DNA of 64,000 nucleotides. Source: Octopus vulgaris. Lineage: Eukaryota. A program made the translations under genes and the position numbers. Below, one piece after another: positions 6,382 to 58,889 of this stretch (the first letter of the stretch is position 1; each line of letters begins with the position of its first letter). The notes beneath the pieces are model-generated. The model made no database searches. It saw only the letters and a program-made list of their open reading frames with translations, and was not told where the DNA came from. The stretch covers positions 34,658,001 through 34,722,000 of the forward strand of contig OX597822.1 of the NCBI GenBank assembly GCA_951406725.2, given 5' to 3'.

Positions 6382-6738
6382 GTGGAGGAGTAATGGCCCA
6401 ATGATTAGGGCGGCGGACTCGCGTCGTAGGATCGCGGTTTCGATTCCCAGACCGGGCGTCGTGAGAGTTTATTGAGCGAAAGCACCTAAAGCCCCACGAA
6501 GTTCCGGCAGGGGTGGTTCTGGCGAACCCTGCTGTATTCTATTCTTTCACCACAACTTTCTCTCCCTCTTTCTTCCTGTTTCTGTTGTTACAGTATGTCA
6601 CGCTGAATCTCCCCGAGATCTACGTTAAGGACAGTCGTGTTTGTGGAGTGCTCAGCCACTTGCACGTTAATTTCACGAGCAGGCTGTGCCGTTGATCGGA
6701 CCAACTGGAACACTCGTCGTCGTAACCGACGGAGTGCC
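6382..6738 (+). mobile_element. tRNA(Arg)-like-headed SINE, head C + tail 2
   Basis: A/B boxes, anticodon-like loop ACTCGCG; homologous to 22882-23260. Confidence 0.85.
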
Positions 6739-7448
6739 ACGTATGTATATGTATATATATAAACATGTGTATGTGTGCGTGTGTGTATAGCGAGAGAGAG
6801 AGAATGAAAGAAAGGGAGAGAGATGTAATATGGTTTAATCCTTGGTCTGTTTGAGAACCACAATCTAATTTCATGCTAAATAACAAATACAGCCGTACAT
6901 TTGCTTTCTATCTCCGGACATTATTCAAGTTTAATCACCTAAGCAAGTCTTCATTCCAGCAAAAACTTTTCGTATAATTGTTCAACATCCTAGTTCCTTT
7001 GAAGTCTTTACTATGGTTTCAACAGTCTTTCCATACAGTTTTTAACTTCTTAATTTTTGCTTATTGTGTACCAATCATCACTTCGTAGAATAATTTCTTG
7101 CATCCGTAGAAAAAGCTCCTGCATCTACCTTTCATACCCGACCTCATCATACAATTCTATTGTATCTTGCTAATCAATAAGAACACCATTCCACAGTATT
7201 TTTGGAACCTCGTGTTTACCCAATAATTTTCCTTCGACAACAACTCTATAAAATTTCAAATTAATAAATAAATTGCATTTAGAAAAAGACCCCTGTAATT
7301 TTCATTCGGTTTTTAATCGGTTTGTATTTAATCGATTTTAAAGAACATATTAAACGGAGATGTGAATTTTTATGTCAAAATCTAAATCATTCATTTCTCT
7401 TAAACCTGTGTCTTCATCGCATTGGAAGCAGCATACGGGAAGTTATTC

Positions 7449-7633
7449 AGAGACCCCCTTCGGTCACGAATGACCATGGGATTGCACCTAGAAAGTTACC
7501 CTCCGAAGTACAAGTCCGGGTAAGGTTGTTTATGGACGACTAGTAGTTGTCCATGCATACCAGCCTCCCCTCTCCAGGCCGCCGATGTTATCCAAGGGAA
7601 AGACAAAGGCCGATATAGCTTGGCACCAGTGTC
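7449..7633 (-). mobile_element. SINE tail-3 fragment
   Basis: Homologous to 52245-52370 (caagtccggg...gttatccaaggg...cttggcacc). Confidence 0.7.
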
Positions 7634-7714
7634 AGGAAGTTAACCAATTATAATAAACATGCGTAGATTCTACAACTAACATCTGTGGCTGGCCACAAAG
7701 GCTGAACACTTCAA

Positions 7715-8035
7715 CTACATGATTAGCAGGGGAACTTTTTTTAATATACAAACTCATACTATCTGCATCACGTACGCTGGTCATATGTTTATTACAATTA
7801 AATACAGACAAAAATACCTATCGTCTTAAAAAATATCTTGTAAAGAGTTTCGTCCTTACATTTATGATCCAACACAGCTCTAGTATAAAAGTCATGACTT
7901 AACGTCCTTCCATTCTTAGATATAAATGTTGGAATGTTAAATATCAGAGATAGTAGCACCGTATGCATGAAAAACGCAAAAGCGTATGTATTTACACTTA
8001 TAATGTTCATCCTCATAGGTATAATATATATGTAG
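7715..8035 (+). repeat. Unclassified ~320-bp repeat, inverted relative to 15765-16085
   Basis: ttatgatccaacacagctctag here is the reverse complement of ctagagctgtgttggatcataa at ~15920; collinear similarity on both sides. Confidence 0.8.
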
Positions 8036-8949
8036 TCGAATTACAGCGTATGACACCGGACTATAGTGACTACTTGGTTACATATACTCACTCAAGTTTA
8101 GTTATCCATTGCTATAGTGACGCTCAAATAACTACTACGTTTATTTCTTGAAAATCCAGGACAAAATCTTTATACAAAGAAAATTGAAATTCTATTCATC
8201 GATTAGCTCAATTTCCTGTCTTAAGTGCCCAGGGAACAAACATTCTCCTCGCAGCATGTGCCATGTCAATACACATAAAACACAGGCACAATTGATTGTT
8301 TGTGTACAAAAGCTTCCATTTGCTTTAAGCTATCTTAAGGCCTTCATTTCATTTTATTATACGCGGCAAGTGTTTATGTTGAAATTTTATGAACGTACCT
8401 TCTTTATCTTTATCACTTTGATGTGCATCAGGTCTTCCTTCTCGAGATTTTCTTCACCCATACCACACTTCACACATTTACTTTGAAACAAAAGTTATGG
8501 TATTGTATTGTAATTTTATGAATAACAAGTGAGAAGTTGAGTGATTAATATATTAGCTTCAGGAATATAAAGTTAGAATTTCAGTACTATAATTTTGCTG
8601 TCCAAGCCGTTAACTGTACATGCAGTTGAATCGTCGGGTAAAATGGAGTAATCATTACTTAATGCTGGGAACGTGACACAGGTTTAAGAGATATGAATGA
8701 TTTTATTTCGCAGTGAAACGGGTTTTATTCGTTTACGGAACACTGTAAAAAATAGAAATATATATATTAAAAGAAATAATGACGGCCGAAAATTGCAAGT
8801 TCCATTTGGCTGCGCCTGATATGTTCATTATGAGAAATATTTTAGGAGATTAATATATTTCTCTGAATATTTTTAGTGAACAAGTAATATACGAGTTATT
8901 TGTATTATGTCAACTAAGTGTGTGTGTATGTGTGTAGGTGCGCAAGATA

Positions 8950-9230
8950 AACCGGCAGAATTGTAAGCGCGTCGGACAAATTATTTAGCGGTATTCCTTC
9001 TGACTCTTAACGTATAGATTTCAAATTCCACCGAGATCGAATTTACCTTTCATCGTTTCGGACTCCATAAAATGAGTGTTCGTGGAGCACTGAGAGTCGA
9101 TATAATGGACTCACCCATGCTCTTATGGTTTACTCATGCAAAATCTTTCGTCACCCTAGCATGACCGCAGCTTTGAAACTGAAACATTTTTAAATAGTTA
9201 AAATAGTTTATGTGCTAAAATTTGAAACCG
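8950..9230 (+). mobile_element. Degenerate SINE family B
   Basis: ggcagaattgtaagcgcgtcggac...ttcaaattccaccgag...ctttcatcgtttcgg. Confidence 0.6.
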
Positions 9231-12264: not shown

Positions 12265-12675
12265 GTGAGCTGGCAGAAAAGTTAGCACGCCGGGCGAAAT
12301 GCGTAGCCGTATTTCGTCTGCCACTACGTTCTGAGTTCAAATTCCGCCGAGGTCGACTTCGCCTTTCATCCTTTCGGGGTCGATTAAATAAATACCAGTT
12401 ACGCACTGGGGTCGATATAATCGACTTAATCCGTCTGTCCGTCCTTATTTGTCCCCTCTGTGTGTAGCCCCTTGTGGGTAGTAAAGAAATAGATATTTCG
12501 CCTGACGCTACGTTCTGAGTTCAAATTCTGCCGAGGTCGACTTTGCCTTTCATCCTTTCGGGGTCGATTAAATAAGTACCAGTTACGCACTGGGGTCGAT
12601 ATAATCGACTTAATCTGTTTGTCTGTCCTTGTTTGCACCCTCTATGTTTAGCCCCCTGTGGGCAATAAAGAAATA
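12265..12675 (+). mobile_element. Dimeric SINE family B
   Basis: Head gagctggcagaaaagttagcacgcc; ~185-bp unit (gttcaaattc...cctttcatcctttcggggtcga...taaagaaata) present twice. Confidence 0.85.
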
Positions 12676-12696
12676 AATATTTAAGCAGCCCAAAAT

Positions 12697-18554: not shown

Positions 18555-19309
18555 GTTTATGTATCTATTTATCAATATGTATATATGCATGTATATGTAT
18601 ATTTTTGTGTATATGTTTGTGTGTATGTGTGTCTATGTGTATCTGCGTGTATATAGATATGTAACTTAGATAAGTTACATAACTTTGATATGGTTCTATA
18701 TTTAAGAGATGAGGAATTATGTAAATAATGTAAATAATGAATTTTGATATGTTAAGACAAAAGATTGGTCCAGGCTAACTTAATGGCACCACCTAATAGG
18801 ATTTGCTAAATTTTATTTTTAAGTCAAGTTTTGTACTATGATGGGCCATACTTCTTGGGTGAGTTGTGCGTGTACGTACATATACATGCATACTTACATA
18901 CATATATGTACATATATATATATATATATATATATAAGTTATGTACATATATCTTCTTGTTTGTAAAGTGTTACACGAGGGTGAAATTTCTCGATAATTA
19001 CATGTTCAGCTTCTTTCACGGTTTTAGTTCTTACAATATCCATGATGGATTAATGGTGAGGAAATATGGAAAAGTCGGATGTAGAATTACTTCATCTGGC
19101 CTGTTCACTTTTCCTCAGCATTAATCCACACACACACACTGTAATCTAATAGTATTGCAGCTTTGCAGCTTCTATGTGGATGTTCGGCCAGTTAGAAAAA
19201 GCGACAACATTTCTCTAAAAATCACACACAACCCTCTTAAGGACCGAAATGTTACACCAGTGATGTAGTCCTCCATTTAGGAAAAGCTGCAATATTATTT
19301 GATTACAGT
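17924..19309. repeat. Inverted repeat pair, ~140-bp arms (17924-18067 / 19165-19309)
   Basis: gaggactacatcac...ttctaactggccgcacatccacatagatgctgc is the reverse complement of gcagcttctatgtggatgttcggccagttagaa...gtgatgtagtcctc. Confidence 0.85.
18693..18740 (-). mobile_element. Terminal fragment of the hammerhead-bearing element at 54948-55127
   Basis: gttctatatttaagagatgaggaatta identical to 54949-54975. Confidence 0.65.
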
Positions 19310-33753: not shown

Positions 33754-34196
33754 GCCTTGATGCAGTACCAGAGAGTGGCCCTCATGCTTCTAAGCTAAAC
33801 TGATTTGAAGTGTTATCACGTGCATTGTTTTGTCTTGGTATAAAGGATGGGCTACAGCAAATATCCTGCTAATACCGCAGAATTGCTTGTCAGTTGTTTG
33901 ACTTTAACCAGTTGAGCATGTCCCTTAGTGGCTGACGATATGTGCATCTCTGATCACGAGCAGAAGTAGTGGGGGAGCATCATCGTCATGTGCTGAGAGA
34001 GATTCTTTGGGGTTTCAATAATTTACCTCTGCAAACATGGGTGTTTAATTCAACATCCTTAAACAACCATTATTCAGGGACCTTTTGAGCGGGATGGGTT
34101 ACTAGACCAGAAGAGAATTCTAACTGGGCCCCACATGCAAGGTCATATGCTGTTTATCTTGATATGAGATCACCATGTCGTACACATATGGTTGTG
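33751..34196 (+). mobile_element. Non-coding AAT-associated element (family E), 3' part deleted
   Basis: Begins directly after (AAT)n; reverse-complement homology to 55520-55885. Confidence 0.8.
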
Positions 34197-54947: not shown

Positions 54948-55127
54948 AGTTCTATATTTAAGAGATGAGGAATTACGTACATTATATTATTTACAATTGA
55001 CGGAAATTTGTCCTCATCTTGTTTGTTTTTAACACAACGTTTCGGCTGGTATACCCTCCAGCCTTCATCAGGTGTCTTGGGGAAATTTCGAACCTGGGTT
55101 CGCATTCCTAAGGTATTTTTCGATGTT
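54948..55127 (-). mobile_element. Hammerhead-bearing body of putative tRNA-headed element (family F)
   Basis: Contains the hammerhead below; terminus repeated at 18693; adjoins the ATC/ATT tract leading to a same-strand tRNA-like head. Confidence 0.65.
55031..55076 (-). ncRNA. Minimal type I hammerhead ribozyme (Penelope type)
   Basis: Minus strand GACAC-CTGATGA-A-GGCTGG-agggtata-CCAGCC-GAAA-CG-TT-GTGTT: stem I 5 bp, stem II 6 bp, palindromic AACGTT in place of stem III. Confidence 0.8.
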
Positions 55128-55154
55128 GTTGTTATCATCATCATCATCATTATT

Positions 55155-55186
<32 letters not shown>

Positions 55187-55235
55187 TATCACTATTATTA
55201 TTATTATCATTATTACTATTATTACTATTATTATT

Positions 55236-55885
55236 GAGTGAGAGAGCAGTGCATGCCATCAAAGTGACACTGGGGTAAAATATACGAAGCCCAATATACC
55301 CATCATGACTACCCGTCTGATAAGGGTACACCAGGCACATGCATCACAACCATATGTGCGCGACATGGTGATCTTATTATTATTATTATTATTACTATTA
55401 TTATTATTATTGAGTGAGAGAGCAGTGCATGCCATCAGAGTGACACTGGGGTAAAATATACGAAGCCCCGTATACCCATCATGACTACCCGTCTGATAAG
55501 GGTACACTAGGCACATGTATCACAACCATATGTCGGCGACATGGTGATCTCATATCAAGATAAACAGCACATGAACTTGCATGTGGGGCCCAGTTAGAAT
55601 TTTCTTCTGGTTGAGTAACTCATCCCGTTCCAAAGGTCCCTGAATAAGGGTTGTTTAAGGATGTTGAACAAAACACCCAAGTTTCCAGAAGTGAATTATT
55701 CAAATCCCAAAGAATCTCTCTCAAGACATGGCTATGATGATCCCCCACTACTTTTCCTCGTGATCAGAGATGCACATATCGTCAGCCACTAAGGGTCTTG
55801 CTCAACTGGTTAAGGTCAAACAACTGACAAGCAAATCTTTGGTATTGAGCAGAATATTTGCTGTAGCCCATCTTTTATACCAAGA
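55236..55885 (-). mobile_element. Two tandem family E copies (55236-55374; 55412-55885), same 3' end, different 5' truncations
   Basis: Both start gagtgagagagcagtgcatgccatc directly after (ATT)n on the plus strand; homologous to 33751-34196. Confidence 0.85.
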
Positions 55886-56029
55886 TTCAGGTCACTGCCT
55901 GGAATCAAACTCAGAATCTTGGGGTTAATAGATCGCGCTTTTAACGACAACGCCAGATGCCCGTGAGCGTAGTGCTTAAGAGCGCGGACTACTAACCCCA
56001 TGATTCCGAGTTCGATTCCAGGCAGTGAT

Positions 56030-56034
<5 letters not shown>
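55886..56034. mobile_element. Palindrome of two divergent tRNA-like Pol III heads
   Basis: Right arm gcgtagtgcttaagagcgcggactactaaccccatgattccgagttcgattccaggcagtgatctgaa; left arm is its reverse complement with some mismatches; B box GAGTTCGATTCC. Confidence 0.85.
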
Positions 56035-56121
<87 letters not shown>

Positions 56122-56123
<2 letters not shown>

Positions 56124-58607
56124 CAATAGCAGACCTAAGAAAGGCACTCACGAAGGCCCATAATTGGAAATCCCCCCGTAAAGATGGGGTGCCGAATATC
56201 TGGCTCGCATCGCTCCCATGCGCACACGGTAAGCTAGTTCAGCTGCTCAATGGAATTATGAGAGACCCAAAGAAAACACCTGAATGGTTAGCAAGTGATA
56301 TTACTTACCTACTCCCAAAGAATAACGAAACCAACCTCCCCAAAAACTATCGGCCTATAACCTGTCTATCCACCACGTATAAAATCCTAACATCTATCCT
56401 GGCGGAGAAAACATATGCATTCATGGAGAAGAACGATATTTTCCCCATTGAACAAAAAGGGTGCCGCCGAGGCTCTTACGGATGCAAAGATTAACTGCTA
56501 ATTAATCGTATGATCCTTGAGAACTGTCACAACAAGCGCAGAAATCTCAGCTCCGCATGGATTGACTATAAAAAGGCCTTCGACAGTATACCGCATCCAT
56601 GGATCTTGAGATCGCTGGACATCTTCAAAATTTCCCCTGTGATTTCAAACTTCCTGAAGCACAATATGTCGTTGTGGAATACGAATCTCCAATTATACCA
56701 CTCTAATGGAGTACTTGCCTCAGAAAATATAAACATCAACTGTGGAATTTTTCAAGGTGACTCACTTTCACCTTTAATATTCTGCATAGCCCTAATACCC
56801 CTTACAAGTGAATTAAACAGAACAGGGTATGGGTATAAAATTGCCAATAAAAAAATAAGCCATCTATTTTATATGGATGACTTAAAACTCTATGGTAAAG
56901 ACAATAATGAACTTGAAGGCCTATTGCGCACTGTGAAAGCATTCAGCGATGACATCGGGATGGAGTTTGGACTTGAGAAGTGTGCCAAGGCCACTTTCCA
57001 GAAAGGGAAAGTGAAGACCACAAATTCAGTCGTGTTAGATGTTGACACAGTCATAAGAGAGCTTGAGCAAGAACAAACATACAAATATTTAGGGATAAAT
57101 GAAGGCTCTGGTATTCAGCATGCAAGCATGAAAGAGAAGATCAGGAAGGAATGTTATAGGATAGTTCGTGCAGTCCTGAAATCTGAACTAAATGCACGTA
57201 ACAAGGTGTTAGCTATAAATTCCTTAGCAGTTCCAGTTGTTACTTATAGCTACAATATGTTGAACTGGAATATGAGTGAAGTAAAGAATATAGATAGGAA
57301 AATACGCAAGCTGCTGAGTTGTAATAGGATGCACCACCCAAAGGCAGACGTAGATCGCCTTTACCTTCCCAGAGCCCAAGGAGGTCGAGACCTGATCCAA
57401 TTTGAACTAGCTTACAAAACAACCACAATTGGACTGGCCAAATATCTCGAAATAACGAATGACTGGATGCTAAAGCTCGTGGAAAATCACGAGAGACGAA
57501 AGAAGCTTCATTCTATCATAAAGGAAAGCAAAAAATTTGCTATTGATCTCGTGCAGGATACCCAAACTGAACAACCCGAGGGAAGTACGGCAACTATTGT
57601 TGCAAAGAAGGTAAAAATAATAGCAACGAAAAAAGCGCACGAGCAATTGGCTGATAGGTGGGAGGAGAAACATCTGCACGGCAAATATGTGGCCCGCAGC
57701 AAACAAGCTGATGTTGACCAGAAGCAAACTCATCAGTGGCTACGGAGCTCAGGGCTAAAAGCAGAGAGCGAAGGTTTCATCCTGGCTGCTCAAGATTAAA
57801 GCCTAGTAACCCGGAACTACCAGGCCAATGTGATGAAAAATGGAGCAGACCCAAAATGCCGATTCTGCAACGACATGATTGAAACAGTGGACCACCTAAT
57901 CTCTGGATGTAAAGTCTTAGCACCAGTGGAGTATAAATTAAGACATAACAGAGTTGGCCAATATCTACACTGGCTAATAAGTCGGCATTACAATATCAAA
58001 ACTGCCGACAAGTGGTATAATCACCACCCTGAGGCTGTAACTGAAGGAGAAATGTAACTATTCTGTGGGACTTTCCAGTACATACAGACCGAACCATCAA
58101 GGCCAATAAACCAGATATTGTTGTGAAAGATCAAAACAATAAAGTTTGCTTATTGATCGACATGAGCATCCCCTGTGATCATAATATCTCAGCGAAAGAG
58201 TTTGACAAGCTCAGAAAATATAAAGACCTGCTCATTGAAATTGAGAAAATGTGGCATCTCAAGGCGGTTACAATACCAGTGATCGTAGGAGCACTAGGAA
58301 TGATCAAGAAGGGAACCGAAAATTATATGAGAATGATCCCTGGCTTACCATCCCTGCAAGAAGTGCAAAAGATTGTCTTAACTGGTACATCACACGTATT
58401 GAGAAAAGCATTGTCGATGTGAGAACTGTTGCTGCTCATGTATTTTAATTTAACTTAAAAGAAATAATAAAAATTTTTAAAAAATGAACGAACGAGTTTG
58501 GTTTAATGGCCTACCAATGTATACTATGAGTTTCTTTGCCCTAGAAGTCGGGAAGACACTCGGCAAGAAATGGAAGCAAATTTGAAAGAAGAAAAAGAAA
58601 AAGTAAC
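56122..58607 (+). mobile_element. R4/Dong-clade non-LTR retrotransposon, 5'-truncated, inserted in (AAT)n
   Basis: RT, CCHC and REL domains plus 3'UTR; (AAT)n on both sides, matching the TAA-repeat targeting known for Dong. Confidence 0.9.
56123..58422 (+). pseudogene. Disrupted RT / zinc knuckle / restriction-like endonuclease ORF
   Basis: NYRPITCL, WIDYKKAFDS, GIFQGDSLSP, FYMDD, YKYLG, CRFC..ETVDHLISGC, RHN, KPDIV..IDMSIP..KY; stops at 56492 and 57797, frameshift near 58050. Confidence 0.92.
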
Positions 58608-58889
58608 AATAATAATAATAATAATGATAATGATAATAATAATAAGGGTGGGTGCATATTTCCTTATAGTAGATGTGATCTTTCCATTCTGAAACAGCTC
58701 TGAGTAAGGGCGGTTGCCATATACTCTTAAGCAAGTTACTTGCTGCCTTGCAATGGTCAAGAAACGCTGTAAGAAAACTTCGGATGCATTATGGCTTGTT
58801 GTTTTTGCATGCATGGCACAACGGCTTGTGAACATTTTCTCATGGGTAGTAAGCAGTCTTTATTCGTAAGTTAAAAGAGAAACCTCAAT

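What the first reader, a model, noticed from the sequence alone, without database searches (positions are those of the whole stretch)
54948..56121. Putative Pol III ribozyme-SINE: tRNA head + (AAT)n + hammerhead, with an inverted partial copy
Seen: removing the two E insertions leaves, on the minus strand, a tRNA-like head (55962-55886), an AAT/GAT tract, and a 180-bp body with an intact minimal hammerhead whose terminus recurs at 18693. A second head plus (AAT)n points the other way. Known: minimal dimer-acting hammerheads and inverted partial copies are hallmarks of Penelope-like elements; retrozymes are non-autonomous hammerhead retroelements; classic SINEs use LINE tails. Inference: a tRNA-promoter, self-cleaving SINE mobilised by a Penelope RT/GIY-YIG. 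That head and body form one element is inferred, not proven here.
Basis: partly seen in the sequence, partly recalled or inferred. Interest (0 to 1): 0.85.

Follow-up and report, generated by a model that had tools for sequence, protein, structure and literature searches.

The report
Penelope retrotransposon end with tRNA promoter
This repeat is the terminal repeat of an octopus Penelope-type (Poseidon) retrotransposon that carries a tRNA-like segment ahead of a hammerhead ribozyme motif; most of its thousands of genomic copies begin at that segment, likely because RNA polymerase III starts a short RNA there, which would be a promoter type not found reported for these elements.

Summary
Head + (AAT)n + hammerhead body is the pseudo-LTR (pLTR) of an autonomous Poseidon-type Penelope-like element (PLE). 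It follows the RT/GIY-YIG ORF in 27 of 30 ORF-seeded loci, and the body also encodes the ORF's first ~50 codons. Inverted pairs are single insertions: 41 of 67 have 9-19 bp target duplications, and 39 of 43 have the 30-45 nt tail on one arm only, the PLE signature.

What is unusual is the head. It best matches tRNA-Arg(ACG) (52/74), has A and B boxes, and marks a sharp 5' boundary: 2,889 versus 368 genome matches just inside versus across it. The 2.55-kb sense strand has no TTTT, the Pol III terminator (codon-shuffle P=0.025). This points to Pol III transcripts from the pLTR that yield SINE-sized copies.

Against or open: short and ORF-linked copies share one consensus and age, RNA-seq showed no discrete start, a weak hairpin also lies at the boundary, and Pol III use and cleavage are untested.

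The parts
54948..55125 (-). 3' part of the pLTR ('body'): ORF start, minimal hammerhead, stem-loop and tail
   Evidence: 93% to family majority; runs straight into the ORF in longer copies
55103..55105 (-). ATG that opens the Poseidon ORF (about 835 codons in the family majority; this copy goes out of frame after about 40 codons)
55031..55076 (-). Minimal type I hammerhead motif: helix I 5 bp, core 55071-55065, helix II 6 bp, GAAA at 55043, no loop 3, predicted cut after 55036
   Evidence: definition in PMC4209133; cleavage not tested
54963..55020 (-). Predicted stem-loop whose (GTAAATAAT)n loop holds the short 3' end of the family
   Evidence: fold; bimodal 3' ends
54948..54985 (-). PLE tail (approximate 5' limit), present on one arm only of inverted pairs
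   Evidence: 39 of 43 pairs
55126..55235 (-). (AAT/GAT)n spacer of the pLTR
55236..55885 (-). Later insertion: 5'-truncated E repeat with a 176-nt tandem duplication of its 3' end; not part of the PLE
55887..55963 (-). tRNA-Arg(ACG)-like head of the tailed arm; A and B boxes degenerate in this copy
55967..56033 (+). 5'-clipped head of the inverted arm; B box at 56008-56019
56033..56121 (+). (AAT)n spacer of the inverted arm; its body is lost
56122..58645 (+). Unrelated 5'-truncated LINE (RVT_1 domain, AAT tail) inserted in the AAT tract
18693..18735 (-). Separate tail-only remnant of the same family

Best explanation
The feature is a short, inverted insertion of the pseudo-LTR of a Poseidon-type Penelope retrotransposon whose pLTR begins with a tRNA-Arg-like segment that likely acts as an internal Pol III promoter. 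Shown: element order is [head-(AAT)n-ATG-hammerhead-stem-loop-tail]-RT-GIY-YIG-stop-31 nt-[head-(AAT)n-...-tail], where the 5' repeat was seen only from the inner head onward; inverted pairs are single events with 12-13 bp target duplications, a tail on one arm only and 5' ends piled at the head. Inferred, by analogy to anole Poseidon in vitro: the protein nicks both strands about 12 bp apart, each 3'-OH primes reverse transcription at one of two sites around the stem-loop, and the two cDNAs are joined head to head. Inferred from the boundary, boxes and lack of TTTT: most templates are Pol III RNAs starting about 5 nt before tRNA position 1, from any pLTR or solo copy, so the element sheds SINE-sized copies of its own end. 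The hammerhead would cut only as a dimer or with protein help.
For: ORF followed by head in 27 of 30 and 15 of 20 ORF-seeded loci. All 5 of the 30 N-terminus-seeded loci that reach the ORF start have the body there. One frame runs from the body ATG through RT and endonuclease. Endonuclease matches an HMM of this genome's PF01541-positive PLE domains (E 3e-6 among 5 proteins) and no CX2-5CxxC linker was found. One tailed arm in 39 of 43 pairs, P=1.4e-8. Duplications in 41 of 67 pairs against 1.3 shuffled, mode 12-13 bp. 34 of 43 arms that reach head position 12 stop between -15 and +12; 27 of 30 head-seeded loci stop within 8 nt upstream of position 3; 2,889 versus 368 genome matches. In 10 of the 70 loci one arm starts at the head 5' end while its partner has no head, and 4 loci jump on the same strand from the ORF to head position 1-12. 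Head 52/74 identical to tRNA-Arg(ACG), score 70 against shuffled 21+-6. No TTTT in 2,554 nt; 0.33 per kb in 111 aged segments against 2-5.5 per kb in other PLEs and the LINE of this genome.
Against: RNA-seq reads of a holder species lie on both strands equally, follow DNA copy number, mostly run into flanks and show no start or end site, so no discrete Pol III RNA was seen. A -6.3 kcal/mol hairpin straddles the boundary and many junctions use it. TTTT depletion is modest: P=0.025 by codon shuffle, 0.06 by dinucleotide shuffle, and 1 of 7 outside Poseidon-like groups also has none in 1.5 kb. A and B boxes are not better conserved than the rest of the head (5.6% and 3.6% against 4.8%). No copy was found with a complete head at the 5' pLTR (0 of 30). 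No intact full-length ORF was seen in the copies examined.
Confidence: 0.65

Rival explanations
1. Ordinary Pol II-transcribed Poseidon element: the tRNA-like segment is a captured relic, and the 5' pile-up comes from reverse transcriptase stalling or snap-back at the hairpin, or from RNase P-like cutting at the tRNA mimic.
For: Hairpin at the boundary and junctions that use it. Drosophila Penelope has a LINE-like TATA-less internal promoter and an intron (PMC2377424 abstract). No discrete RNA start. Boxes not specially conserved.
Against: The hairpin is weak for a stop of about 80-87% of copies. The boundary holds where the partner arm has no head and in same-strand jumps. The head is not called as a cloverleaf, which argues against RNase P (inference). 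The lack of TTTT is unexplained.
Confidence: 0.2
2. One reading: a self-propagating tRNA-SINE lineage with its own master copies that borrows the Penelope enzyme.
For: Short copies outnumber ORF-linked ones about 8 to 1. The two arms of a pair share private variants, 43 against 12.3+-3.2 shuffled, which fits many slightly different source loci.
Against: Identical majority sequence and similar divergence for 99 short and 35 ORF-linked heads (5.7% and 7.7%) and for 82 and 21 bodies (4.7% and 4.9%). No diagnostic site beyond what about 250 tests and CpG decay would give. Shared variants could come from gene conversion between arms.
Confidence: 0.13
3. A MITE or other DNA transposon whose inverted arms are terminal inverted repeats.
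For: Palindromic layout with flanking duplications.
Against: Arms are unequal at the outer ends in 39 of 43 pairs, the centre varies freely, and the arms are the end of an RT/GIY-YIG ORF.
Confidence: 0.01

Closest known systems
Poseidon (Penelope/Poseidon clade) PLE, e.g. PAc of Anolis carolinensis (PMC11167929, parts 1-2 of 4 read)
   Same: RT plus C-terminal GIY-YIG; hammerhead overlapping the ORF start; two 3' ends a tail apart, about 117-165 nt into the ORF here and from 111-118 nt in PAc; AT-rich targets; inverted 5'-truncated copies (PMC8557442, passages).
   Different: The pLTR starts with a tRNA-Arg-like A/B-box segment and an (AAT)n spacer, most copies start there, and the sense strand lacks TTTT. 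No such promoter appeared in the passages read or in searches.
Sm-alpha and Sj-alpha hammerhead SINE-like elements of Schistosoma (via review PMC6765202 and PMC2770079, passages; originals not read)
   Same: tRNA-related Pol III promoter followed by a hammerhead; tens of thousands of copies.
   Different: Those are non-coding, often tandem, and have no ORF-bearing parent named in the passages read; here the unit is the pLTR of a coding element with a minimal hammerhead and PLE tail/inversion integration.
Non-LTR retrozymes (PMC7229834, passages; bioRxiv 10.64898/2026.07.22.740005, part 1 and passages)
   Same: Short hammerhead-bearing non-coding units related to PLE pLTRs.
   Different: Retrozymes are head-to-tail tandems of about 300 bp; these copies are mostly head-to-head inversions with a tRNA head.
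Octopus OR1/OR2 SINEs (Ohshima and Okada 1994; paper not held)
   Same: Octopus, tRNA-derived head (Arg origin of OR1/OR2 is recalled, not read).
   Different: Cited as CORE-SINEs; here the head is followed directly by (AAT)n and the ORF start, leaving no central domain. Not compared by sequence.
Cassandra, Helenus and Ajax (PMC10886601, listing and passages)
   Same: A small-RNA-gene segment placed inside a terminal repeat.
   Different: Those are non-autonomous LTR elements; this is an autonomous PLE.

Membership tests
Penelope-like element, Penelope/Poseidon clade | Single ORF with RT followed by C-terminal GIY-YIG endonuclease | tested here: met
   Majority ORF about 835 codons; RVT_1 on 60-68% identical homologues P0001 and P0025; endonuclease matches an HMM of PF01541-positive domains. 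Pfam itself gave no hit on the L212 fragment.
Penelope-like element, Penelope/Poseidon clade | No CX2-5CxxC linker finger (present in Neptune and Nematis) | tested here: met
   Absent in the L212 thumb-to-EN fragment, present in the 781-aa Neptune-type family; criterion from PMC8557442
Penelope-like element, Penelope/Poseidon clade | pLTRs flanking the ORF with a minimal type I hammerhead | tested here: met
   core intact in 67 of 97 copies
Penelope-like element, Penelope/Poseidon clade | Inverted 5'-truncated copy and 30-40 bp tail at one end | tested here: met
   41 of 70 loci inverted; 39 of 43 pairs with one tail
Penelope-like element, Penelope/Poseidon clade | Placement in the clade on an RT tree | not tested
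   No labelled reference proteins were held as stored sequences
tRNA-derived SINE | tRNA-derived 5' head with A and B boxes | tested here: met
tRNA-derived SINE | Transcribed by Pol III from the head | tested here: inconclusive
   5' boundary and lack of TTTT support it; RNA-seq showed no discrete start
tRNA-derived SINE | Non-autonomous lineage separate from its partner, sharing only a 3' tail | tested here: not met
   The whole unit is the partner's pLTR, same consensus and age
tRNA-derived SINE | LINE-type integration: one 3' end, simple duplication around one copy | tested here: not met
   Two 3' ends; duplications flank the inverted pair; none evident by eye around 11 single-arm copies
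Non-LTR retrozyme | Head-to-tail tandem of hammerhead units | tested here: not met
   Not in the window; dominant form is head-to-head. A minor tandem form exists elsewhere.
Non-LTR retrozyme | Circular RNA from self-cleavage | not testable with these tools
   Needs bench work; one search is ordinary RNA-seq
CORE-SINE (OR1/OR2) | About 60-bp CORE domain after the tRNA head | tested here: inconclusive
   Head is followed directly by (AAT)n and coding sequence; no CORE or OR reference sequence was available for alignment
MITE | Equal terminal inverted repeats, no retroelement ORF | tested here: not met

The most novel reading that the evidence does not exclude
An autonomous, protein-coding retrotransposon that is transcribed end to end by RNA polymerase III from a captured tRNA promoter in its pLTR, with its 2.5-kb ORF purged of Pol III terminators. 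Its pLTR is at the same time a ready-made SINE, showing a route by which hammerhead SINEs such as Sm-alpha could arise from Penelope elements.
Probability: 0.3. Interest if true: 0.88.

Novelty: new variant of a known kind. Interest (0 to 1): 0.62.

Why it matters
PLE promoters have been studied in very few elements, and those look like Pol II promoters. A tRNA-type promoter in the pLTR would explain why this family shed roughly tens of thousands of SINE-sized copies, and would link SINE origin to Penelope enzymes rather than LINEs. Whatever the promoter, the family is a large natural test set for the PLE integration model: two priming sites, one per strand, 12-13 bp staggered cuts and head-to-head joining can be read from the copies and match the one in vitro study. 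Annotation pipelines would probably split it into a tRNA-SINE, a microsatellite and a Penelope fragment (inference).

Tried and rejected
ARAGORN and Rfam found nothing relevant in the window or five loci. The young 781-aa Neptune-type family found through PF01541 is not the parent: no match to head or body in its repeats, and a different hammerhead. AlphaFold of the thumb-endonuclease fragment was poor (pLDDT 51.5) and its fold search gave nothing at E<=0.001. No holder run was on record as RNA; raw RNA reads came only through a species label and appear unstranded, so they say nothing about polymerase. 80 distant Poseidon-like loci from metagenomes (25-47% identity, 7 groups by single linkage) showed no head homology, and the 7 group representatives no A/B-box pair downstream, but several have little downstream DNA. 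DNA for the closest outside relatives (60-68%, P0001-P0072) could not be obtained. No target duplication was found for the window copy. A single-cDNA fold-back model for the inversions was rejected by inference: in loci such as L061 the longer arm lacks the tail and the tailed arm is short, which needs two cDNAs. PMC5785218 and the 1994 octopus SINE paper are not held; Repbase, Dfam and SINEBase could not be searched, so the family may already be catalogued in pieces.

Full report
Setting. The window is G000:C9:34658001-34722000 of a 2.8-Gb animal genome. The only named homologue of the element's protein is an Octopus sinensis protein, so I take the host to be an octopus (inference). The repeat is held by runs of five coded organisms.

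Observation. The two heads, the AAT tracts, the body, the minimal hammerhead with N17 at 55036 and the remnant at 18693 are present as described. E is one insertion with an internal tandem duplication. The plus-strand arm lost its body where a LINE sits at 56122-58645. A 26-mer of the body has 4,727 exact genome matches. Only 11 of 89 independently found bodies carry it exactly, which gives a rough 38,000 hammerhead-bearing arms (wide margin).

Linkage. Head and body lie on one strand across an AAT-type tract in 16 of 29 body-seeded, 25 of 29 head-seeded and 44 of 70 hammerhead-pattern loci, and in 26 of 30 loci seeded at the head's 5' end. The 70 loci are fetched around the first 76 listed matches on contig 1, and the sets overlap in a few loci.

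Integration signature. 41 of the 70 loci hold head-to-head inverted bodies. 3' ends are bimodal: one at ...GAACTGTA, one inside a 9-nt repeat about 28-45 nt earlier. 39 of 43 pairs have exactly one long end, against 21.5 expected (P=1.4e-8). 41 of 67 such pairs from all sets are flanked by direct repeats of 9-19 bp, mode 12-13 and 77% AT, against 1.3 in shuffles. Each pair is therefore one insertion. An inverted 5'-truncated copy and a 30-40 bp tail at one end are described PLE features (PMC8557442, passages). Anole Poseidon protein cuts and extends both strands and starts reverse transcription at two sites that bound the tail (PMC11167929, parts 1-2).

The parent element. In 10 loci the head continued 5' into a shared sequence that encodes an RT thumb and a GIY-YIG-type domain. 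Searches with two fragments found 5,016 and 7,121 candidates, 150 scored each, mostly broken. Walking 5', 5 of 30 loci reach the ORF start and all five have the body there. The frame opens at an ATG 35 nt before the hammerhead core and runs about 835 codons; one break in my majority is a scaffold artefact, since 11 of 12 copies carry the extra bases. No CX2-5CxxC linker was found, which fits Penelope/Poseidon by the criterion in PMC8557442. No tree was built. A separate young Neptune-type family is not the parent.

The head. Among 11 tRNA types sampled from this genome, Arg(ACG) scores best, 52 of 74 identical; other Arg tRNAs come next, and not all isotypes were sampled. A and B boxes are at tRNA spacing. 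5' ends pile up there: of 107 arms in the 70 loci, 43 reach head position 12 and 34 of them stop between -15 and +12, while the other 9 spread over about 600 nt. Genome-wide, a 23-mer just inside the head has 2,889 matches and one spanning the boundary 368. In a second species, DNA depth rises about fourfold at the head and reads pile loose ends there. A weak hairpin spans the boundary and is used in many junctions, but the boundary also holds in 10 loci whose partner arm has no head (15 such pairs minus 5 that continue into the ORF) and in 4 same-strand jumps.

Terminator test. The 2,554-nt majority has no TTTT on the sense strand and 30 AAAA runs. Aged copies have 0.33 per kb with no recurrent site; three other PLE regions and the window LINE have 2-5.5 per kb at similar T content. 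Nulls give P=0.01 (base shuffle), 0.06 (dinucleotide), 0.025 (synonymous codons) and 0.023 (Neptune codon use). Seven outside groups hold 36 runs in 11.5 kb, but one has none in 1.5 kb. This is suggestive, not decisive.

Is the short form its own SINE? The majority sequences of 99 short and 35 ORF-linked heads, and of 82 and 21 bodies, are identical and similarly aged. Arms of one pair share private variants, 43 against 12.3 (114 arm pairs), which fits a common template or later gene conversion. I read the short copies as products of the element's own pLTR; re-mobilisation of solo copies is possible but not shown.

Expression. Three raw RNA runs (about 6% of each read, one study) gave 6,400-9,200 reads each at 85% likeness, equal on both strands, 76-80% running on into unlike flanks, with no start or end site. 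This looks like passive inclusion in host transcripts.

Prior work. Minimal dimer-type hammerheads in pLTRs are known and weakly active in vitro (PMC4209133, parts 1-2 of 4). Pol III hammerhead SINE-like elements are known in Schistosoma. Retrozymes have been tied to pLTRs. Ten searches listed no paper describing a PLE with a tRNA-type promoter or this family; most listed papers were seen as listings only. The supplement of PMC8557442 lists only Naiad and Hydra families under the octopus terms searched. The library lacks most subscription journals and Repbase Reports, and preprint supplements are closed, so prior cataloguing cannot be excluded.

Verdict. A real, high-copy Poseidon-type PLE terminus (about 0.93 for this part), with a tRNA-derived segment that likely works as a Pol III promoter (about 0.65 overall). 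New variant of a known kind; interest 0.62.

Noticed in passing
L121-L130 (e.g. G000:C16:20835000-20841500): Young Neptune-type PLE family with an intact 781-aa frame and copies 96-98% identical; its pLTR has a hammerhead-like motif that appears to carry the U3-A8 core variant (read by eye).
   Followed up: partly
L308, L315, L316, L327 (all on G000:C29): About 290-nt head-to-tail units made of the body plus the next 119 nt of the ORF, with one shared junction; a possible retrozyme-type derivative, or a local duplication.
   Followed up: no
window 55236-55885 and 33833-34196; L011, L016, L018, L028, L049, L177, L186, L215: The E repeat (about 560 nt, AAT tail) lies in or beside AAT tracts, in the same orientation as the PLE arm in these loci; its partner is unknown and it shows no match to the window LINE.
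   Followed up: partly
window 56122-58645: 5'-truncated LINE with RVT_1 domain, in-frame stops and an AAT tail, inserted in the AAT tract.
   Followed up: partly
window 12310-12682: Two tandem 184-bp copies of another repeat that resembles an octopus CORE-type SINE (recalled, not tested).
   Followed up: no
G000:C2:211890000-211907200: Tandem cluster of about 25 matches to a tRNA-Arg(ACG) motif, many at about 207-bp spacing.
   Followed up: no
P0001-P0072: A close relative family (about 51-73% identity) mostly in unnamed ENA assemblies, so possibly in another animal; its DNA could not be fetched to look for a tRNA head.
   Followed up: no
L003:976-1500: Three tandem 146-nt units of head, short AAT and the first 27 nt of the body with an inverted piece, ahead of a full copy.
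   Followed up: no
114 inverted arm pairs: Arms share private mutations 3.5 times above chance; a possible measure of gene conversion in short inverted repeats or of source-locus diversity.
   Followed up: partly
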